From positions 1 to 12,588 of the IMG/VR virus record IMGVR_UViG_2713896773_000018: DNA of 12,588 nucleotides, one strand, 5' to 3'. The notes beneath the pieces were generated by a model. That model worked only from the letters and a program-made list of their open reading frames with translations, ran no database searches and had not been told where the DNA came from. Made by a program: the position numbers and the translations under genes. Within the stretch, counting starts at the first letter, position 1. The number at the start of each line of letters is the position of its first letter. Shown here one piece after another: positions 4,249 through 12,319 of the stretch. The DNA is from a virus (Duplodnaviria > Heunggongvirae > Uroviricota > Caudoviricetes).

Positions 4249-4294
4249 CGGTGGCCTGATGAGACGTTTTGGTGAAAGCATATAAGGACTGTTG

Positions 4295-5161
4295 ATGGAA
4301 AACACTGGCTTACACGATGTTAATTTTTCACTTAGATATGACGGTTTGGATGCTGAAAAGCATGAGATTGAACTTTCTTCGCTCGGTGAATCGCTAAAGG
4401 GATTTTCGAAGATATTAGCTACAGCTGGAACCTTCGCATTAACCCAAAAGTACTCGCGAAGCACCTCAACTCAAGAGGTTAAAATTTACGCTACCGAAGC
4501 TAGGGCCAATTGTTTTTCTCTTGATACTATCATGAATTTTATCAGTCAGTCTCAATTGTTCTCAGGGTCTGCGGGGGCTATACTTGGCGCATTAGTGCCT
4601 TATATCTTCGCTAAAAACTCGCAGAAGAAAGAGGAAATGAAATACCTAAAAGAAGCACTTGAGAAGGCAATTGAGGCCCTCGGAAATAAAGATAAAGATA
4701 CCATCTCAGGTCTAATCTCAGTGATTGACAAGATGGCTAGTGAGTTACGCCCATCAGTTAGACAGGCAGTTTCCCCCATCGGTACCACCTGTAATAAGAT
4801 AAGCGTCACACCGGGGAATGGTTTCAAGCCTGCTGTAATTGATGAGCAAGATAAAGCAGTAATAGACCAGTTGGACGACGACGAAGTTCTTGGCTTAAGG
4901 GAGTATCGAATCTTCCTTACTGAATTCGACGCTCACCGAATGACCGCTAAAGTCATTATAGAAGGTGATGATTCAGATAAGCGCATCTCAGCACAAATAA
5001 GCGATCCATCTGCTTCAAAGGCAGACAACCCGTATCTCATTTCACTTAGTCGTTTTCTGTCAACGGGTCTAAGTCATGAGTCAGCGGTAAAAGTAACTGC
5101 CAAAGCAGCAGTTAGAAAAGGGGCTATTAGTAAACTTTTCATAGTTGATATTGAGCTTTAA
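4295..5161 (+). CDS. hypothetical protein (288 aa) in the rex/immunity-moron position; one short hydrophobic stretch, no recognised domain
   Basis: ATG at 4295 with AAGGA RBS (the ORF track starts at a TTG at 4292). Immediately downstream of and co-oriented with cI, followed by a terminator. AT-rich: about 38% GC in a hand-counted 130-nt sample. Hydrophobic stretch [17 protein letters not shown], then a K/E-rich helical segment. Confidence 0.8.
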
Positions 5162-6335: not shown

Positions 6336-7004
6336 ATGATTCGTCTTAACAACGAAATTAAAAATCAGCTATGCCATAACCTGCTTCTCGCATCCCCATT
6401 GTTTGAGAAAGCGAAAGCTGCGGTTAATGAGAGGGCGAAAATTGTTGAAGAAATTCGACAGGCATTGCTCAAGCAGGAAAACACTAGCGATGAGCAAATA
6501 ACTAAGGCTCGGGAAGATTTCAAAGATAACTCCTTCATCAAGATGCAGGTCGGCGCTAAAACTGCAACTTTAAAGGTCATTATTAATGGTGAGTATCACG
6601 AATTAGCCAGGAACGGTTTGGATCATCGCTATCGCCACCGTGGAAAACATATTGGTAAGCACGATCTTGAAAGCGACCTGTTCTTCGGAGCTTCCTTCGC
6701 GCCTGTAATTGATTCGGGTTTCGTTCCTGAAAGTTACAGCACGCTGAAGAAAGTTGGAAAATTACACGACCGACTCACTGAATCGACGGTAACCATCAAC
6801 GTTCTTTACGATGAAGTTGATGCCTTCCAATTGCAGGTTAAAGGTGCTCTAACCAAAGTCTCAACTGTTAAAAAACTGGCTGAGATGTGGCCTGAGGCAG
6901 TGCCATATTTGCCTGAGGTGGAACGCCGTGAAGCGACCAGCACCGCACTTGCCATTCCCGTTGAAACGCTAAACGCCCTTTGCGGCATACCAAAGAATGA
7001 ATGA
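6336..7004 (+). CDS. hypothetical protein (222 aa), AT-rich accessory gene in the ral/sieB-equivalent position
   Basis: RBS GAGGG. A long ORF with no internal stops in AT-rich DNA, followed by a strong terminator. No family recognised. Confidence 0.8.
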   Translation: MIRLNNEIKNQLCHNLLLASPLFEKAKAAVNERAKIVEEIRQALLKQENTSDEQITKAREDFKDNSFIKMQVGAKTATLKVIINGEYHELARNGLDHRYRHRGKHIGKHDLESDLFFGASFAPVIDSGFVPESYSTLKKVGKLHDRLTESTVTINVLYDEVDAFQLQVKGALTKVSTVKKLAEMWPEAVPYLPEVERREATSTALAIPVETLNALCGIPKNE

Positions 7005-7165: not shown

Positions 7166-7675
7166 ATGACTCTTATCGAATTGACCAAAAAGAAAATGGC
7201 AATTGAAGCCGAACTGGCTCAGTTGAAGGCGAAGTTTGTTGATGACACCTCACGCATCGGTAAAGAGCTGATTGCCGTGTCTGAAGGTATCAACCAGGCC
7301 AATAAAGGCCTAACGGTTGAGATGGTTAGGCATGGCATGACGATCATTAACTTCGGTGACCCGAAACAAAGCATGGAGCGGCGCGGGTGTGTTGAAGACG
7401 CGATTAACGACATTGCGTCGGGGTTCAACCGTCTGAGCGAGCGTTATTTTGGCACAAAAAACTACGCCCACTGGAGCGATCAGCGTGAAGACCATCGCTA
7501 TGGATATGGCCCTAAACACGGCTCTATCTGCTTCAAGATCGGTTTAACTGGCACCGCACTTAATAAGCTGGCAAGCGGCGGGTTGAGTGATTACGACGCT
7601 GAATGCGCTATCTACTGCCTGATGAACATTGACGCCATCAATGCGGCAAACGACAAAGCCCGGGAGGCATCATGA
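7166..7675 (+). CDS. hypothetical phage protein (169 aa)
   Basis: GGAG at 7156-7159 favours the ATG at 7166 over the one at 7160. The stop overlaps the next ORF's start (ATGA). Confidence 0.7.
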   Translation: MTLIELTKKKMAIEAELAQLKAKFVDDTSRIGKELIAVSEGINQANKGLTVEMVRHGMTIINFGDPKQSMERRGCVEDAINDIASGFNRLSERYFGTKNYAHWSDQREDHRYGYGPKHGSICFKIGLTGTALNKLASGGLSDYDAECAIYCLMNIDAINAANDKAREAS

Positions 7676-7830
7676 CAGTCACCCATAACGGAAAGAAGTA
7701 CACCGCCAAAAAGCTCAACGATAACGAGTGGCAGCTGACGTCCGTATCGGCACCGCGTGAAAAGCTGACGCTTAACCGCTGGCATATGAAGCTGGCTGGC
7801 CTCCTGGAACAGGTTGAGGTGAAGGTATGA
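7672..7830 (+). CDS. small hypothetical protein (52 aa; MTVTHNGKKYTAKKLNDNEWQLTSVSAPREKLTLNRWHMKLAGLLEQVEVKV), not in the supplied ORF track
   Basis: Strong RBS GGGAGG 5 nt upstream of the ATG at 7672. ATGA overlaps with both the upstream and downstream genes suggest translational coupling. Confidence 0.55.
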   Translation: MTVTHNGKKYTAKKLNDNEWQLTSVSAPREKLTLNRWHMKLAGLLEQVEVKV

Positions 7831-8333
7831 TGCGAAAGCACAAGTTGCCAAGTGCTGAGGAGATAGATTCCTTGCTGGATTACAACCCTGAAACCGGAGT
7901 ATTTACGTGGAAAGTGACGAAATCAGGATGGGTTGTAAAGGGGCGGCCTGCTGGTTCAAAAAACAATAATGGCTATCTCCGAGTTGGTATTGGAAGAAGG
8001 CACTACTTCCTTTCTCGAATCGCATTTTTCTTATGCACCGGGGAATCACCTGAAGAAGTAGACCATATCAATGGTGACAGAACAGATAACAGGGCGTGCA
8101 ACTTAAGAGCCGCAAGCCGTCATGAAAACTGCCTCAATAAGTCGGTAAGAAGCGACAGCAGGACTGGTGTAAAGGGCGTCTCATGGCGACCGGATGTTAA
8201 AAAATGGTCTGCACGATCAACTGATTCATCGGGGAAGAGAGTGTTTTTAGGTTACTACCGCACCATCAGAGATGCGGTGGCTGTCCTTAATGATTTTCGG
8301 AGAGAACAGCATGGTGAGTTTGCAAAAAATTAG
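7827..8333 (+). CDS. HNH homing endonuclease with C-terminal AP2-type DNA-binding domain (168 aa)
   Basis: HNH motif EEVDHINGDRTDNRACNLRAASRHENCLN. AP2-like segment GVKGVSWRPDVKKWSARST...KRVFLGYY. RBS GAGGTGAAGG. Confidence 0.85.
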   Translation: MMRKHKLPSAEEIDSLLDYNPETGVFTWKVTKSGWVVKGRPAGSKNNNGYLRVGIGRRHYFLSRIAFFLCTGESPEEVDHINGDRTDNRACNLRAASRHENCLNKSVRSDSRTGVKGVSWRPDVKKWSARSTDSSGKRVFLGYYRTIRDAVAVLNDFRREQHGEFAKN

Positions 8334-8544
8334 CAGCAACTTGCACTACGGCACCACCCCGCTCATTCGCCAGTGCGTCACGCCAGGCATGATGGCATTG
8401 CATGAAGGCCGCACCTATCGCGTCTCAGCAGTCATTCAGGAGCGCAAATGGGTGTACCTGCACACCGATGCAGAAATTATCCGCCTCAGTGACTGCGTGA
8501 TTGACGTCCTTCTGGACGGTCACGGAAACCCTATCCAGCACTAA
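8311..8544 (+). CDS. hypothetical protein (77 aa), start overlapping the 3' end of the HNH gene by 23 nt
   Basis: RBS GGAGAG with a 6-nt spacer before the ATG at 8311; the ORF-track start at 8272 has no RBS. Confidence 0.5.
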   Translation: MVSLQKISSNLHYGTTPLIRQCVTPGMMALHEGRTYRVSAVIQERKWVYLHTDAEIIRLSDCVIDVLLDGHGNPIQH

Positions 8545-8613
8545 CCACCCTATTCATCCGATCGGCCTGGCTTCTGCGGGCGGGATCTGCACATCCAAAT
8601 TTCAGGAGAAACC

Positions 8614-9582
8614 ATGAGCGAAGTAACGGACTTAACTGTCATCGAAATCAAGCCGGAACAGGCCCCAGTGCTTTACGTAGCGGGCGGCCTTGACGCGTAC
8701 CTTGAGCAAATCCGCCAGGCTGTAAACGAAGTGCCGGACCTGTCCACGAAGAAAGGCCGTGACCGTGTCGCCTCTCTGGCGGCGCAGGTATCCCGCAGCA
8801 AGACAGCAATCGAAAAGCCGGGCCGTGAATACCTTAAGCGCCTGAAAGAGGCTGTGCGTCCGGCTGAGGCCGAAATTAAGCGTTTCGTTGATGCTTGCGA
8901 CGAGCTACGTGATGCCACCCGCCGCCCACTCACCGAATGGGAAGCCGAGCAGGAGCGCATCAAGGCTGAAGAAGCCATGAATGCGCTGCACGCCGAAGCG
9001 CTGGAGATGAACGAAGAGTTTGACCGCCAGCGCGCCGCTCAAATCGAAGCGGACCACGAAATGGCTCTGCTGATGAATGAGAAGTTTGACCGTGACCGCG
9101 AAGAGCAGCGCCGCCTGGCAGAACAGGCTCAGCGCGAACGTGACGAACGACTGAAGCAGGACGCGGCAGAACAAGCCCGCCGCGATGCCGAAGCGATGCA
9201 CAAAGCAGAGATTGAAGCCGCAGCGCGCCGTGAAGCTGAAGAGAAAGCACGTGCAGAGCTGGCTGAACGCCAGCGCGTCGAAGCGGAACAGCGTGCAGCT
9301 CGCGAGAAGCAGGAAGCAATCGCAGAAGAAAAACGCAAAGCGCAGGAAGAAGCAGATCGCATCAAGCGCGAAGCTGAAGCGAAAGAGAAAGCCCGTCTGG
9401 CCGAAGAGCAGCGCAAAGTTGAAGAAGAAGCGCGCCGCGCCGCAGACAAAGAGCACCGCCGCACCGTCAACCGTCGCGTCATCGCCGACCTTATAGCTCA
9501 GGGCATCCCCGAAGAATTCGCGCAGAAAGCACTGCTGGCGATCGCTGGCGGCAAAGTGCAGGACGCGCACATCAAATATTGA
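8614..9582 (+). CDS. hypothetical protein (322 aa) with a long Ala/Glu/Arg/Lys-rich low-complexity central region
   Basis: RBS AGGAG. Globular-looking N-terminus of about 100 aa, then about 180 aa of ERKA-rich repeats (e.g. AEEKRKAQEEADRIKREAEAKEKARLAEEQRKVEEEARRA), then a short C-terminal tail. Located immediately upstream of gam. Confidence 0.75.
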   Translation: MSEVTDLTVIEIKPEQAPVLYVAGGLDAYLEQIRQAVNEVPDLSTKKGRDRVASLAAQVSRSKTAIEKPGREYLKRLKEAVRPAEAEIKRFVDACDELRDATRRPLTEWEAEQERIKAEEAMNALHAEALEMNEEFDRQRAAQIEADHEMALLMNEKFDRDREEQRRLAEQAQRERDERLKQDAAEQARRDAEAMHKAEIEAAARREAEEKARAELAERQRVEAEQRAAREKQEAIAEEKRKAQEEADRIKREAEAKEKARLAEEQRKVEEEARRAADKEHRRTVNRRVIADLIAQGIPEEFAQKALLAIAGGKVQDAHIKY

Positions 9583-9589
9583 GGCAACC

Positions 9590-9871
9590 ATGAACGCATA
9601 CCTCACTTACGACCGAATCGAAGATCGGCGCTGGGTTGAGCAGCAGCTCACCGACGAGAAGGAGAAGTGGATCGACAACCGGGCGAAAGAACTGATCGCC
9701 ATGTTCCCGAAATATGCTCTGCAAATGAGTAGCCTGTTTCTCCCAAAAGAAGCGCAAATGGCACTAGTCGGTGAAAAGGCAGAGGAAGCCTATAACGACT
9801 ATGTCACACGCATCTGTTACGACCGCGCCGAAGAAGAGTGGGATCGCCTTCATCCAACCTGCCCATTTTAA
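9590..9871 (+). CDS. gam: Gam-like host-nuclease (RecBCD) inhibitor, 93 aa
   Basis: N-terminus MNAYLTYDRIEDRRW... resembles the short form of lambda Gam (MNAYYIQDRLEAQSW...) from memory. Position directly upstream of the annealing-protein and exo genes. RBS GAGG. Confidence 0.55.
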   Translation: MNAYLTYDRIEDRRWVEQQLTDEKEKWIDNRAKELIAMFPKYALQMSSLFLPKEAQMALVGEKAEEAYNDYVTRICYDRAEEEWDRLHPTCPF

Positions 9872-9880
9872 GGAGGGGCT

Positions 9881-10798
9881 ATGAGCTTAACCCTTGTTGA
9901 TTTCGTCAAACAACAGGAGCCGCTTTTCATTAAGGCGGCCACAGACGAGCGGATGGTGTGGGCGAAGGAAAGCCAGTTCGCCATCCAGCTATTTCAGAAC
10001 AATGACTACCTCGCGAAAGTCGCATTCCAGAACCAGACCAGCACGCAGAACGCAATAATCAACGTTGCGGCTATCGGTATTTCGCTAAACCCAGCTCAGA
10101 AGCTGGCTTACCTGGTTCCGCGTAAAGGGGCAGTTTGCCTCGACATCAGTTACATGGGCCTGATGCACATTGCGCAGCAGTCTGGCGCCATTAAATGGTG
10201 TCAGTCGGCAATTGTTCGCAGAAACGACCAGTTCCGCCGCGAAGGGCTCGATAAGCCGCCGGTCCATATCTACAACGACTTCGATACCGAAGAGCAGCGC
10301 GGGGACATCGTAGGGGCATATGTAACGGTAAAAACTGACGATGGTGATTACCTCACCCATACGATGCGCATCGATGCCATTTACTCCATCCGTGACCGGT
10401 CTGAAGCATGGAAGAAGTACAAATCTGACAACAGTAAAAAGTGTCCATGGGTCACTGACGAAGAACAGATGATCCTCAAAACAGTCGTGAAGCAGGCAGC
10501 AAAATACTGGCCTCGCCGTGAGCGCCTGGACGCCGCCATAGACCACGTTAACACCGAGGGCGAAGAAGGTATCAACTTTACAGCAGAGCGTCAGCCTGAG
10601 CGCGATATAACGCCGCTTAGCGAAACCACGCAGAAAGAGATAAACGACCTGCTTGTCTCTTTGGATAAGACATGGGATGACGATCTTCTCCCTCTCTGCT
10701 CACGCATTTTCAAACGCCCTATCACGCAGCCAGCAGACCTGACAGAGCTTGAAGGTGTTAAAGCTCTCGGGTTCCTCAGACAAAAGGCGGCAGCATGA
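9881..10798 (+). CDS. single-strand annealing protein: RecT-like core with a Red-beta (Bet)-like C-terminal tail, 305 aa
   Basis: Perfect RBS AGGAGG. The C-terminal ~70 aa ([13 protein letters not shown]...[16 protein letters not shown]...[12 protein letters not shown]) closely match the lambda Bet C-terminus as I recall it. The N-terminal ~230 aa look RecT-like rather than Bet-like. Stop overlaps the exo start (ATGA). Confidence 0.8.
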
Positions 10799-11475
10799 CA
10801 CCAGAAATTATCCTGGCCCGGACCGGCATTGACGTAACCACTATCCAGCAGGGCGACGAGGCGTGGCACCGGCTGCGCCTCGGCGTTATCACCGCATCTG
10901 AAGTTCACAACGTCATTTCCAAGCCCAGATCTGGGAAGAAGTGGACAGACATGAAAATTTCCTACTTCCACACCCTACTCGCCGAGGTATGCACCGGCGT
11001 AGCGCCAGAGGTTAACGCCAAGGCGCTGGCCTGGGGGAAGCAGTATGAAGAAGACGCCCGCACCCTCTTCGAGTTCACCACCGACGTGAAAGTCACGGAG
11101 TCTCCGATCTTGTTCCGTGACGAGAGCATGCGCACCGCGTGCTCACCTGACGGCCTTTGCAGTAACGGATTCGGCCTCGAATTGAAATGCCCGTTCACCT
11201 CCCGCGACTTCATGAAATTCCGCCTTGGCGGTTTCGAAGCCATCAAGTCTGCCTACATGGCCCAGGTGCAGTTCAGCATGTGGGTGACCGGGAAAGACGC
11301 CTGGTTCTTTGCCAACTACGACCCGCGCATGAAGCGCGAAGGTATTCACCACGTCGTCGTTGAGCGGGATCCACAGTACATGACCAATTTCAACGAAATG
11401 GTGCCGGAGTTCATCGAGAAGATGGACGAGGCGCTGGCGGAGATCGGCTTCAGGTTCGGGGAGCAGTGGAAATGA
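10795..11475 (+). CDS. exo: lambda-type 5'-3' exonuclease (Red-alpha / YqaJ family), 226 aa
   Basis: Near-collinear, high-identity match to lambda Exo from memory ([14 protein letters not shown]...[24 protein letters not shown]...[31 protein letters not shown]...[10 protein letters not shown]). Confidence 0.93.
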
Positions 11476-11518: not shown

Positions 11519-12097
11519 ATGAAACGCCTGGACGATGTTTGCGGCAAAGCAGGATGGCGCAATGAATACCGCGATATTCCCAACAACGGCGGAGTTGAAT
11601 GCGGCATATCAATCAAGATTGATTCCGAATGGGTAACCAAATGGGATGCTGCTGAAAACACGCAGGTAGAAGCCGTCAAAGGTGGTCGTTCAGGTGCAAT
11701 GAAGCGTGCTGCCGTTCAGTGGGGAATAGGTCGGTATCTGTATAACCTTGAGGAAGGTTTCGCACAAACATCTCTCGATAAAAAGCAGGGATGGCACAGG
11801 GCAAAACTCAAGGGTGGAACAGGATTTTACTGGCTCCCTCCATCGCTGCCGGGATGGGCAATCCCAGCATCAGATAACAAACCATCACCAGAAAATACCA
11901 ACCATAAATCTCCATCGGTTGACTGCGAGCAAATCCTGAAAGACTTCAGCGATTATGCGTCAACAGAAACTGATAAGAAAAAACTCATCGAGCGTTATCA
12001 GCGTGACTGGCAATTAATGGCTGGCAACGAGGAGGCGCAGGCTAAATGCGTTCAGGTAATGAACATCAGAGTTAACGAACTAAAACAGGCGGCATAA
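11519..12097 (+). CDS. Erf/Rad52-superfamily-like protein, apparently N-terminally shortened (192 aa)
   Basis: C-terminal ~55 aa (EQILKDFSDYASTETDKKKLIERYQRDWQLMAGNEEAQAKCVQVMNIRVNELKQAA) closely match the P22 Erf C-terminus as I recall it. Rad52-like motif AMKRAAVQWGIGRYLY at residues ~60-75 leaves too little upstream sequence for a complete annealing domain. Weak RBS. Confidence 0.55.
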   Translation: MKRLDDVCGKAGWRNEYRDIPNNGGVECGISIKIDSEWVTKWDAAENTQVEAVKGGRSGAMKRAAVQWGIGRYLYNLEEGFAQTSLDKKQGWHRAKLKGGTGFYWLPPSLPGWAIPASDNKPSPENTNHKSPSVDCEQILKDFSDYASTETDKKKLIERYQRDWQLMAGNEEAQAKCVQVMNIRVNELKQAA

Positions 12098-12319
12098 ATG
12101 GCAAGCAGAGGCGTAAATAAGGTGATCATTATTGGTCGCCTTGGGCATGATCCAGAAATCAGAGATTCATTCAACAAGGTTGCAAAGCGCGTTCCGGCAT
12201 TCAAAGGAATCCTCAACGAATGGGATTCACTCGTTGCTCTGTTGAAGTCTGAAATGAAGATACACGGAAACAAAGCACCAGAGACTTACAGAAGAATCAG
12301 CGAGCTACGCAAGGACTAA
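12098..12319 (+). CDS. 73-aa ORF whose first 22 codons are an ssb 5' remnant (MASRGVNKVIIIGRLGHDPEIR) fused to unrelated sequence
   Basis: The first ~66 nt resemble the start of E. coli ssb at protein and DNA level, from memory. After codon 22 no frame continues SSB-like sequence, so this is a recombination junction rather than a frameshift. Whether the product is functional is unknown. Confidence 0.45.
   Translation: MASRGVNKVIIIGRLGHDPEIRDSFNKVAKRVPAFKGILNEWDSLVALLKSEMKIHGNKAPETYRRISELRKD

What the first reader, a model, noticed from the sequence alone, without database searches (positions are those of the whole stretch)
8614..9582. 322-aa protein with a ~180-aa Glu/Arg/Lys/Ala-rich repeat region upstream of gam
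The central region is strongly charged, predicted coiled-coil and low-complexity. It is encoded by GC-rich repetitive DNA that throws off spurious ORFs in several other frames. Lambda has kil and cIII here instead. The function is unknown.
Basis: seen in the sequence. Interest (0 to 1): 0.45.

Follow-up and report, generated by a model that had tools for sequence, protein, structure and literature searches.

The report
Phage phi80 Agt-like recombination-module protein
This is a real prophage gene, a close relative of phage phi80's agt ("anti-toxin for Gam"). It belongs to a large family with no known mechanism that sits next to phage DNA-recombination genes of every type, which suggests a general recombination helper rather than a dedicated Gam antidote.

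Summary
The ORF at 8614-9582 (+, 322 aa) is real. It is the ortholog of phage phi80 agt (87% nt and 86% aa identity; residues 1-110 are 100% identical, with only synonymous changes). GenBank annotates agt as "anti-toxin for Gam / modifier of Gam". Here it lies in a phi80-like early-left operon in the order kil, agt, gamL, recT, exo.

The Glu/Arg/Lys/Ala-rich centre is not a DNA or protein repeat and not a classic coiled coil. Its charges are patterned like an ER/K single alpha-helix (z = 5.2 against shuffles) and it has no hydrophobic seam.

The family (PHROG 1376; no Pfam family, no solved relative; over 4,000 50%-identity clusters) always has three parts: a conserved N-terminal module, a charged helix spacer, and a roughly 40-aa C-terminal mini-domain ending in Tyr.

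Across Enterobacterales, Pseudomonas and Vibrio phages, 91% of species-level loci have a single-strand annealing protein gene (RecT, Erf, Rad52-like, Sak4) within 3.5 kb. Only 16% have GamL. GamL, even at 100% identity, often occurs without Agt.

The gene is therefore best read as a general accessory of phage recombination modules, and its GamL-buffering effect in phi80 as one manifestation of that role. A weak resemblance of the C-terminus to RuvA domain III is an untested lead.

The parts
8604..8608 (+). AGGAG ribosome-binding site of agt, 5 nt before the ATG
   Evidence: Read directly from the sequence.
8614..9582 (+). agt-like gene (322 aa plus stop), ortholog of phi80 agt/mog (PHI80_40)
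   Evidence: Megablast gives 87.1% identity over the full length to phi80 agt. PHROG 1376 matches full-length at E 3.6e-103. The codon-position pattern of substitutions fits this frame.
8614..8943 (+). Conserved N-terminal module (aa 1-110), with the family motif EVPDLxTxKGRxRIASLAAxVSxSKTAVEKPGRxYL...LRDExRxPLTxWE
   Evidence: It is 100% aa-identical to phi80 despite 22 synonymous nt changes. Near-invariant residues are seen across 70 diverse members. As a query it finds 4,209 50%-identity clusters. AF2 pLDDT is above 90.
8749..9063 (+). Long amphipathic helix (aa 46-150), continuing out of the N-terminal module
   Evidence: AF2 predicts helix 46-150. Hydrophobic periodicity has z 2.6 against shuffles.
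8998..9100 (+). The only true internal duplication: 37-nt units at 8998-9034 and 9064-9100 (ALEMNEEFDRQR / ALLMNEKFDRDR)
   Evidence: the repeat finder family D4, 76% identity, 66-nt spacing.
9091..9453 (+). ER/K-type charged single alpha-helix spacer (aa 160-280), the core of the Glu/Arg/Lys/Ala-rich region (aa 111-280 = nt 8944-9453)
   Evidence: There are 66 attractive i+3/i+4 charge pairs against 40.8 +/- 4.9 in shuffles (z 5.2). Same-charge pairs are depleted (z -5.0). Hydrophobic content is 5-10% with no heptad signal. The PDB profile search hits only known ER/K helices: myosin VI, drebrin, zuotin, INO80. AF2 predicts helix 168-295.
9454..9579 (+). C-terminal mini-domain (aa 281-322): helix, G-hydrophobic turn, helix, then an extended tail ending in a near-invariant Tyr
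   Evidence: The family consensus is HRxxINxxAxxxLxxxGxxEExAKxxxxAIAxGxxxxVxIxY. AF2 of the isolated domain gives pLDDT 89. There is a weak similarity to RuvA domain III.
9581..9592 (+). Junction of agt and gamL: the GAGG ribosome-binding site of gamL overlaps the agt TGA stop, and the gamL ATG is at 9590 (7-nt gap)
   Evidence: Read from the sequence. The same 8-13 nt spacing occurs wherever GamL follows an Agt homolog.
9590..9871 (+). gamL, the phi80-type host nuclease (RecBCD/SbcCD) inhibitor
   Evidence: NF033500 equivalog E 1.8e-43. PHROG 1050. phi80 annotation.
9881..10798 (+). recT single-strand annealing protein
   Evidence: Pfam RecT 1.4e-29.
10795..11475 (+). YqaJ-type recombination exonuclease
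   Evidence: Pfam YqaJ 6e-31.
8272..8544 (+). kil (FtsZ inhibitor) immediately upstream; the true start is probably internal to this ORF
   Evidence: NF008465 1.2e-32 on residues 25-90, and PHROG 294.

Best explanation
The ORF is the agt (mog) gene of a phi80-like lambdoid prophage. It is transcribed from pL as part of the early-left operon, directly ahead of gamL-recT-exo.

Its product is a three-part adaptor:
- a highly constrained N-terminal module (about aa 1-110, running into an amphipathic helix to about aa 150);
- a roughly 120-residue ER/K-type single alpha-helix of conserved length that acts as a stiff spacer;
- a roughly 40-aa helix-turn-helix C-terminal mini-domain with an exposed G-hydrophobic turn and a terminal Tyr.

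It most likely works as an accessory of the phage recombination module. It would hold two binding activities a fixed distance apart on the host DNA-end and branch-processing machinery, or on recombination intermediates. In phi80-type modules this has the recorded effect of making GamL (the RecBCD/SbcCD inhibitor) tolerable to the cell.

Shown here: identity, architecture, charge patterning, operon position, and the family-wide linkage to annealase genes.
Taken from the phi80 GenBank record: the GamL-toxicity relief.
Inferred: the tether or adaptor mechanism and the nature of the partners.
For: Identity:
- 87% nt and 86% aa identity to phi80 agt over the full length, with the same gene order.
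- PHROG 1376 at E 3.6e-103.

Selection:
- The N-terminal module is 100% conserved against phi80 with only synonymous changes. The centre is 76% identical but keeps its composition and length.

Architecture:
- The three-part build is conserved in about 100 diverse representatives.
- AF2 gives pLDDT 87.8 with helices 46-150 and 168-295.
- ER/K patterning has z 5.2 here and a median z of 3.3 in 70 family members, 90% of them above 2.

Context:
- In 61 of 67 species-representative genome loci a RecT, Erf, Rad52-like, Sak4 or c69 gene lies within 3.5 kb on the same strand. A single annealase gene in a 45-kb phage would give about 16% by chance.
- In D3-type phages the annealase starts about 7 nt after the stop.
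- In Vibrio-type phages the recombination genes lie on either side, so adjacency survives rearrangement.
- The linkage holds for at least four non-homologous annealase families.
- There is no promoter or + strand terminator between kil and recT.
- The agt stop overlaps the gamL ribosome-binding site.
Against: - No partner or biochemical activity is shown.
- No fold or sequence relative has a known function.
- Position next to the recombination module could partly reflect the fixed layout of early-left operons in lambdoid phages.
- The only experimental statement, the phi80 annotation, points specifically at GamL. I could not read the primary paper (Rotman et al. 2012, J Bacteriol).
- The 2025 survey of lambdoid Rec modules does not list this family as a Rec-module gene.
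- Whether the two long helices form one rod or fold into a hairpin is unresolved (pTM 0.38).
Confidence: 0.55

Rival explanations
1. Agt is a dedicated protein antitoxin of GamL. It binds GamL stoichiometrically and blocks or tunes its inhibition of RecBCD/SbcCD, as a type II antitoxin does, and has no other role.
For: - The phi80 GenBank record reads agt = 'anti-toxin for Gam; Mog (modifier of Gam)' and gamL = 'toxic without Mog'.
- The genes are adjacent with a 7-nt gap, and the agt stop overlaps the gamL ribosome-binding site.
- Wherever both genes occur the order is always Agt then GamL, 8-13 nt apart.
Against: The two genes assort independently.
- Only 11 of 67 species-level Agt loci have GamL. 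None of 73 D3-type loci and none of 73 HK544-type loci have it.
- 20 of 78 loci whose N-terminal module is 98-100% identical to this one lack GamL.
- Conversely, only 15 of 30 loci with GamL at 95-100% identity have Agt upstream. L343 has an identical GamL and no Agt. TL-2011c/Stx2a phages, HK639 and Chronis also lack it.
- No Agt residue distinguishes GamL-positive from GamL-negative loci.
- C-terminal domain types do not co-vary with GamL presence or GamL variant.
Confidence: 0.2
2. The C-terminal mini-domain mimics RuvA domain III and binds host RuvB. Agt-family proteins would recruit or, more likely, antagonise RuvAB branch migration at phage recombination and replication intermediates.

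This would also explain the relief of GamL toxicity. By established knowledge (Seigneur et al. 1998, cited from memory), cells without RecBCD activity suffer RuvABC-dependent breakage of reversed forks.
For: - The C-terminal profile's best PDB hits are RuvA domain III from three species (E 0.028-0.09). The family consensus 'nEALaaLvaaGlseeqAkavitaIak' aligns with E. coli RuvA 161-186 '[26 protein letters not shown]'.
- hhalign against a RuvA domain III alignment gives probability 65% and P 6e-5. An hHR23A UBA domain gives 22% and EF-Ts gives 0.1%.
- RuvA chains give the highest query TM-scores in Foldseek, 0.55-0.60.
- The positions that align with RuvA L167, G171 and Y172 are conserved as Leu, Gly and a hydrophobic residue. 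My recollection that these are RuvB-contact residues is from memory.
- The recombination-module context fits.
Against: - No match is statistically significant at database scale.
- Only 1 of 56 single C-termini hits Pfam RuvA_C.
- AF2 gives two helices and an extended tail, not the three-helix domain III.
- Foldseek E-values are above 5.
- C-terminal types in near-identical phages share only about 21% identity, which is odd for a module aimed at the highly conserved RuvB.
Confidence: 0.12
3. Agt-family proteins are counter-defence or decoy proteins. They would shield the phage from host systems that sense recombination-module proteins or RecBCD inhibition, and they sit at the module boundary for co-expression only.
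For: - The gene is expressed early from pL alongside host-takeover genes such as kil and gamL.
- The family is very widespread in temperate phages of Proteobacteria.
- The C-terminus is variable and exchangeable, as expected under an arms race.
Against: - There is no match to any defence or anti-defence model tested (PADLOC).
- The N-terminal module is under strong purifying selection rather than diversifying.
- Tight linkage to annealase genes persists across rearrangements.
Confidence: 0.08
4. The protein is a TolA-like envelope protein or a Kil-like division inhibitor, or the ORF is a compositional artefact.
For: - Public annotations of homologs include 'cell envelope biogenesis protein TolA'.
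- The region throws off ORFs in several frames.
Against: - There is no transmembrane segment (maximum Kyte-Doolittle 19-residue mean 0.88).
- There is no TolA, Kil or any other Pfam/NCBIfam match. SMC scores 15.5 bits against a cut-off of 729.
- A separate kil gene is present upstream.
- Synonymous-only change in codons 1-110 proves that this frame is translated.
Confidence: 0.03

Closest known systems
Phage phi80 (Lula) Agt / Mog, PHI80_40, AFV29176.1
   Same: - Full-length ortholog: 322 aa in both, 86% aa identity, N-terminal 110 aa identical.
- Same operon position, between kil and gamL-recT-exo.
   Different: - The central helix is 24% diverged, and there are three substitutions in the C-terminal domain.
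- This prophage has an HNH endonuclease gene upstream of kil and lacks the 278-aa PHI80_41 that precedes agt in phi80.
- The phi80 function rests on the GenBank annotation. I could not read the primary paper.
PHROG 1376 ('unknown function'), including Sf6 gp33, HK544 gp37 and Pseudomonas phage D3 orf53
   Same: - Same three-part architecture and family motifs.
- Same placement beside the recombination module.
   Different: Most members sit next to Erf, Rad52-like, Sak4 or RecET genes and have no GamL. Their C-terminal domains fall into divergent types.
ER/K single alpha-helix (SAH) domains of myosin VI/X, drebrin, zuotin and INO80
   Same: - Composition and lack of Pro, Gly or a hydrophobic seam.
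- Strong excess of i/i+3-4 opposite-charge pairs.
- These are the only PDB sequences the family profile touches.
   Different: This is analogy of physical design only, not homology. The eukaryotic examples are lever arms or spacers in unrelated proteins. The helical, monomeric state has not been measured here.
Type II toxin-antitoxin pairs
   Same: - The upstream 'antidote' gene is tightly spaced with a downstream gene recorded as toxic when cloned alone.
   Different: - The two genes are not an obligate pair and do not co-vary.
- The protein is far larger than typical antitoxins and has no recognisable DNA-binding antitoxin fold.
- GamL is a host-nuclease inhibitor, not a classic toxin.
P22 Arf and Abc1 (accessory recombination functions); lambda Gam position
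   Same: - Non-essential small or medium genes embedded at the promoter-proximal edge of phage Rec modules.
- In D3-type phages the Agt homolog occupies exactly the slot that gam holds in lambda, in the order x, annealase, exonuclease.
   Different: - No sequence relationship.
- Arf (PHROG 2445) co-occurs with Agt in some loci, so it is not a substitute.
RuvA domain III (RuvB-binding) / UBA-like helix-turn-helix modules
   Same: The 26-28 residue helix, G-aromatic/hydrophobic turn and helix motif aligns with RuvA 161-186.
   Different: - The similarity is below significance.
- The third helix is replaced by an extended tail ending in Tyr.

Membership tests
phi80 Agt family (PHROG 1376) | Full-length sequence homology to phi80 Agt or the family profile | tested here: met
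   87.1% nt identity over 969 nt. 86.4% aa identity. PHROG 1376 at E 3.6e-103, covering 1-322.
phi80 Agt family (PHROG 1376) | Three-part build: N-terminal module, charged helix, ~40-aa C-terminal domain ending ...I-x-Y | tested here: met
   The window protein ends ...AHIKY.
phi80 Agt family (PHROG 1376) | Location in the pL early-left operon at the promoter-proximal edge of the recombination module | tested here: met
   The order kil, agt, gamL, recT, exo matches phi80. There is no promoter or terminator inside.
phi80 Agt family (PHROG 1376) | Relieves the toxicity of GamL when co-expressed | not testable with these tools
   Known only from the GenBank notes of JX871397. The primary paper is not held.
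Type II toxin-antitoxin pair (Agt antitoxin / GamL toxin) | Adjacent, co-oriented, tightly spaced genes | tested here: met
   7-nt gap, with the stop overlapping the next ribosome-binding site. Spacing is 8-13 nt in all loci that have both genes.
Type II toxin-antitoxin pair (Agt antitoxin / GamL toxin) | Obligate co-occurrence of the two partners | tested here: not met
   Agt occurs without GamL in 56 of 67 species-level loci and in 20 of 78 near-identical loci. GamL at 95-100% identity occurs without Agt in 15 of 30 loci. Examples are L343, TL-2011c, HK639 and Chronis.
Type II toxin-antitoxin pair (Agt antitoxin / GamL toxin) | Co-variation or specificity between the partners | tested here: not met
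   No discriminating Agt column among 271 variable columns (best P 4e-4). C-terminal type is independent of GamL presence and GamL variant.
Type II toxin-antitoxin pair (Agt antitoxin / GamL toxin) | Direct antitoxin-toxin binding | not testable with these tools
   No complex prediction or binding assay is available.
Canonical coiled coil | Heptad periodicity of hydrophobic residues | tested here: inconclusive
   Residues 46-150 give z 2.6. Residues 168-295 give z -0.9 to 1.4, with 5-10% hydrophobic content.
ER/K single alpha-helix | High E/R/K content, no Pro or Gly, no hydrophobic seam | tested here: met
ER/K single alpha-helix | Excess of opposite-charge i/i+3-4 pairs and depletion of same-charge pairs | tested here: met
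   66 against 40.8 +/- 4.9 (z 5.2), and 15 against 39.7 (z -5.0). 90% of 70 family members have z above 2.
ER/K single alpha-helix | Stable monomeric helix in solution | not testable with these tools
   Needs circular dichroism, SAXS or analytical ultracentrifugation. AF2 predicts helix 168-295 with pLDDT above 90.
TolA (a common database label for homologs) | N-terminal membrane anchor and TolA C-terminal domain | tested here: not met
   Maximum Kyte-Doolittle 19-residue mean is 0.88. No Pfam or NCBIfam TolA match.
   No match for this ORF. A distinct Kil gene is present at 8272-8544.
RuvA domain III-like module | Significant profile similarity to RuvA_C | tested here: inconclusive
   PDB hmmsearch E 0.028-0.09. 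hhalign probability 65%. 1 of 56 members hits Pfam RuvA_C.
RuvA domain III-like module | Three-helix fold | tested here: not met
   AF2 gives two helices plus an 11-residue extended tail. Foldseek E is above 5, and TM-score to RuvA is 0.55-0.60.
RuvA domain III-like module | Binds RuvB | not testable with these tools
   No assay or complex prediction is available.
SMC | Score above the family cut-off | tested here: not met
   TIGR02169 scores 15.5 bits against a cut-off of 729.4. This is a compositional hit.

The most novel reading that the evidence does not exclude
Agt-family proteins are a previously unrecognised, near-universal accessory of phage recombination modules. Their C-terminal mini-domain would mimic RuvA domain III to capture or block host RuvB. 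The conserved N-terminal module would bind a second conserved host target or DNA, held about 18 nm away by an ER/K helix. This would let the phage control branch migration and fork breakage, and would explain why Agt makes a RecBCD/SbcCD inhibitor tolerable.
Probability: 0.13. Interest if true: 0.8.

Novelty: new member of a known kind. Interest (0 to 1): 0.42.

Why it matters
The gene itself is not new, because its phi80 ortholog was named in 2012. The family, however, is large: over 4,000 50%-identity clusters. It has no Pfam family or solved structure, it is commonly mislabelled 'TolA', and a 2025 survey of lambdoid Rec modules does not mention it.

The comparative evidence here links it to recombination modules built on at least four unrelated annealase families in phages of Enterobacterales, Pseudomonas, Vibrio and others. 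If it is a general recombination accessory, three things follow:
- It is a missing component in models of phage recombination-dependent growth and mosaicism.
- It is a candidate additive for recombineering systems, either to give less toxic RecBCD inhibition alongside GamL or to help RecT/Erf function in non-model hosts.
- It would be a clear bacterial-virus example of an ER/K single-helix spacer.

The phi80-derived copy is also present in common cloning strains: DH5alpha, DH10B, TOP10 and JM83.

Tried and rejected
- **Family libraries.** Pfam, NCBIfam and PADLOC scans of the whole protein, of each end, of 70 diverse members and of 10 atypical long members found nothing usable.
- **Sequence search against PDB.** Full-length and N-terminal profiles gave only compositional hits: ER/K helices, ribosomal protein S13, designed repeats.
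- **Tandem and direct repeat searches.** No repeat array was found.
- **C-terminal type as a specificity determinant.** I tested whether the C-terminal domain type tracks the downstream module or the GamL variant. It does not.
- **GamL-specific adaptation anywhere in Agt.** None was found.
- **Literature.** The phi80 genome paper (PMC3510586, doi 10.1128/JB.01353-12) is not held. No searchable paper mentions Agt together with GamL. The 2025 Rec-module survey and the 2022 co-transfer study do not discuss this family.
- **First related-loci scan.** The scan with the 70-sequence alignment failed because no stretch was conserved enough. I replaced it with a 10-sequence N-terminal alignment.
Full report
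**1. What is in the sequence**

The window is the immunity, replication and early-left region of a lambdoid prophage.
- On the minus strand lie ren, P, O, cII and cro homologs. On the plus strand lies cI.
- Then comes a plus-strand early-left operon: an Nmad5-domain protein, small ORFs, an HNH endonuclease, kil (8272-8544), the ORF in question (8614-9582), gamL (9590-9871), recT (9881-10798), a YqaJ exonuclease (10795-11475), a truncated Rad52-like annealase, an SSB fragment and an AlpA/Xis-like gene.

The ORF starts at an ATG five bases after AGGAG. Its TGA stop overlaps the GAGG ribosome-binding site of gamL, seven bases before the gamL ATG. No promoter-like site and no plus-strand terminator-like site lies between 8200 and 10000.

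**2. Checking the observation**

The 322-aa product is as described in composition.
- Residues 111-280 are 71% Glu/Arg/Lys/Ala and 53% charged, with no Pro or Gly.
- The DNA is locally GC-rich (about 0.60) and strongly A-over-T skewed.
- This explains the long open frames on the opposite strand and in another plus-strand frame.

The plus-strand frame is the translated one. Against phage phi80 there are 137 nucleotide differences, 80 of them at third codon positions. All 22 differences in the first 110 codons are synonymous. The antisense frames are less conserved or carry stops.

The region is not a repeat.
- Tandem Repeats Finder reports nothing.
- The direct-repeat search finds only scattered imperfect 16-38 nt matches and one 66-nt-spaced duplication, 8998-9034 / 9064-9100.
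- The best internal protein alignment (score 78) is within the range of composition-preserving shuffles, 72 +/- 8.

**3. Identity**

Megablast against phage genomes gives a full-length 87.1% match to phi80 gene agt. The next gene, gamL, is annotated 'host RecBCD/SbcCD enzymes inhibitor; toxic without Mog'.
- Gene order in phi80 is kil, a hypothetical gene, agt, gamL, recT, exo, the same as here.
- The protein matches PHROG 1376 ('unknown function') end to end at E 3.6e-103.
- It matches no Pfam, NCBIfam or PADLOC family.
- The phi80 genome paper that introduced these names (Rotman et al. 2012) is not in the held library. The functional statement therefore rests on the GenBank record.
- From memory, not verified here: that paper reports an E. 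coli-toxic gene found as a gap in the sequencing contigs.

**4. Anatomy of the protein and its family**

A HMMER scan of 1.84 billion representatives with residues 1-125 finds 4,209 clusters at E <= 1e-3 and 1,140 at E <= 1e-10. Nearly all have the match at their N-terminus and are 300-390 aa long.

About 100 full-length representatives share one build:
- an N-terminal module;
- an E/D/R/K/A/Q-rich stretch free of Pro and Gly (median 126 aa);
- a roughly 40-aa tail with the consensus HRxxINxxAxxxLxxxGxxEExAKxxxxAIAxGxxxxVxIxY that ends the protein.

Near-invariant residues cluster in the N-terminal module: L26, D42, T45, G48, R49, S54, S62, K63, G70, K78, D96, L98, R99, R103, P105, L106, E110. 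Y322 at the very C-terminus is also near-invariant.

AlphaFold2 with a 70-sequence alignment gives a mean pLDDT of 87.8. It predicts short helices at 14-20 and 27-36, one helix from 46 to 150, a low-confidence break at 152-164, a second helix from 168 to 295, and a last helix at 300-311. The pTM of 0.38 and the lack of coordinates leave open whether the long helices form a rod or a hairpin.

**5. Coiled coil or single helix**

- Residues 46-150 show amphipathic periodicity (z 2.6). Residues 168-295 do not (z between -0.9 and 1.4) and contain only 5-10% hydrophobic residues.
- The charges are strongly ordered instead. In residues 160-280 there are 66 opposite-charge pairs at i+3/i+4, against 40.8 +/- 4.9 in shuffles (z 5.2). 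There are 15 same-charge pairs against 39.7 (z -5.0).
- The same bias holds in 70 diverse members (median z 3.3; 90% above 2).
- The only PDB sequences the family profile touches are known ER/K single-helix regions: myosin VI, drebrin, zuotin and INO80.
- Length is tightly held within lineages although the sequence drifts. It is 322/323 aa in 72 of 80 close relatives, 354 aa in 75 of 80 D3-type relatives, and 322 aa in 78 of 80 HK544-type relatives. Against phi80 the centre is 76% identical, while the N-terminal module is 100% and the tail 93%.

This is the signature of a spacer of defined length, not of a variable repeat.

**6. Genomic company**

I collected 254 IMG/VR loci in four lineages and 80 loci from species-representative genomes.
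- *Species-level loci.* Among 67 with at least 3 kb on both sides, 61 (91%) have a recognised single-strand annealing protein gene within 3.5 kb on the same strand. Only 11 (16%) have GamL.
- *D3-type Pseudomonas phages.* Erf or RecT starts about 7 nt after the homolog's stop and a YqaJ exonuclease follows (72 of 73 loci). None has GamL.
- *HK544/Sf6-type phages.* The order is homolog, cIII, kil, a small gene, then Erf, Rad52-like, RecT or Sak4 plus SSB. None has GamL and 15 of 73 have Abc2.
- *Vibrio-type lineage (33-98% identity).* Erf/exonuclease or RecE/RecT lie immediately upstream or downstream, so adjacency survives changes of gene order.
- *Closest relatives.* Where the N-terminal module is 98-100% identical to this one, 58 of 78 loci have GamL next. 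The other 20 instead have a PHROG 7311 gene, Arf, a Rad52-like annealase and SSB.

A single annealase gene in a 45-kb genome would fall within +/-3.5 kb of a random gene about 16% of the time.

**7. Is it a GamL antidote?**

The converse survey, anchored on GamL, shows Agt upstream in only:
- 15 of 30 loci where GamL is 95-100% identical to this one;
- 5 of 14 loci at 79-85% identity;
- 8 of 28 loci at 70-79% identity.

Locus L343 encodes an identical GamL preceded by kil and a zinc-finger protein, with no Agt. TL-2011c and the Stx2a phages, HK639 and Klebsiella phage Chronis also have GamL without Agt.

Within the close relatives, three further tests found no link:
- No Agt alignment column separates GamL-positive from GamL-negative loci (best P 4e-4 over 271 variable columns).
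- The C-terminal domain comes in at least three types that share about 21-40% identity. These assort independently of GamL presence and of annealase type.
- They also assort independently of the GamL sequence variant.

The two genes are thus independent modules that happen to abut when both are present. This does not contradict the phi80 observation. A phage does not need to protect a host it is about to lyse. It does argue that GamL neutralisation is not the family's reason for being.

**8. Search for a mechanism**

A profile of 56 C-terminal domains gives RuvA domain III as its best PDB hits:
- 1ixs_A at E 0.028, E. coli RuvA at 0.046 and 7pbl_G at 0.066. The alignment runs over helix, G-aromatic turn and helix.
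- hhalign against a small RuvA domain III alignment gives 65% probability (P 6e-5). A UBA domain gives 22% and EF-Ts gives 0.1%.
- An AF2 model of the isolated domain (pLDDT 89) has two helices and an extended tail.
- In Foldseek, RuvA chains reach the highest query TM-scores (0.55-0.60) but with E above 5.
- Only one of the 56 single sequences hits Pfam RuvA_C.

I treat this as a lead, not a finding. It is attractive for two reasons. RuvA domain III is the RuvB-binding module. And, by established knowledge cited from memory (Seigneur et al. 1998), cells lacking RecBCD activity are damaged by RuvABC acting on reversed forks. A RuvB antagonist would therefore relieve the toxicity of a RecBCD inhibitor. 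Against it stands the high divergence of C-terminal types among otherwise near-identical phages.

**9. Verdict**

- The gene is an ortholog of a named but barely characterised phi80 gene.
- Its family is a widespread, three-part protein built around a single-helix spacer and linked to phage recombination modules in general.
- The most likely function is a recombination-module accessory or adaptor whose effect in phi80-type modules includes buffering GamL. The partners and chemistry remain to be found.
- Interest is moderate. The element is already named, but the family-level association and architecture appear unreported in the literature I could search.

Noticed in passing
window 7827-8333 (+): A free-standing HNH endonuclease gene (Pfam HNH_3 plus a weak AP2 hit; PHROG 99) sits between the 52-aa ORF (7672-7830) and kil, and overlaps the 5' end of the kil ORF. 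In relatives L343 and L011 the 52-aa ORF is followed directly by kil. This looks like a homing-endonuclease insertion.
   Followed up: partly
window 11519-12097 and 12098-12319 (+): A Rad52/Erf-like annealase lacks its first ~44 residues (it matches profile positions 45-251). An ORF follows whose first ~25 residues only match SSB. Both sit just after the intact recT-exo pair. Intact versions (241-aa annealase plus 165-aa SSB) occur in GamL-less relatives such as L011. This looks like the scar of a recombination-module replacement.
   Followed up: partly
window 4292-5161 (+): The 289-aa gene just downstream of cI is the homolog of phi80 protein 40A (PHROG 5147). It gives a weak hit to the PADLOC candidate defence family PDC-S42 (E 1.1e-5). 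Its position matches that of lambda rexAB, so it may be a prophage-encoded defence gene.
   Followed up: no
window 6336-7004 (+): [quoted passage not shown]
   Followed up: no
loci L014, L019, L036, L054, L073, L251, L265 (gene between gamL and exo): A ~170-aa protein of PHROG 21613 ('unknown function') occupies exactly the slot of RecT between GamL (or the Agt homolog) and the YqaJ exonuclease. It is a candidate for an unrecognised type of annealing protein.
   Followed up: partly
E. coli genomes, hits H66-H85 (e.g. NZ_CP025520.1 123341-125779): The laboratory strains DH5alpha, DH10B, TOP10, NEB5-alpha, JM83 and EPI300 carry the phi80-derived kil-agt-gamL-recT segment (90.6% identical to this window). 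RefSeq labels agt there as 'hypothetical protein'.
   Followed up: no
window 8944-9453, with loci L008-L087: Among close relatives the N-terminal 120 aa are 98-100% identical, while the C-terminal 42 aa fall into three types with 21-40% identity. Variability rises from about column 120 of the alignment. The charged central region therefore seems to act as a mosaic junction where gene halves are exchanged.
   Followed up: partly
phage records and protein clusters: Homologs are annotated inconsistently as 'TolA', 'cell envelope biogenesis protein', 'fibrinogen binding protein', 'ribosome recycling factor', 'major outer membrane lipoprotein' or 'antitoxin protein'. These are evidently compositional mis-annotations caused by the charged helix.
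   Followed up: no
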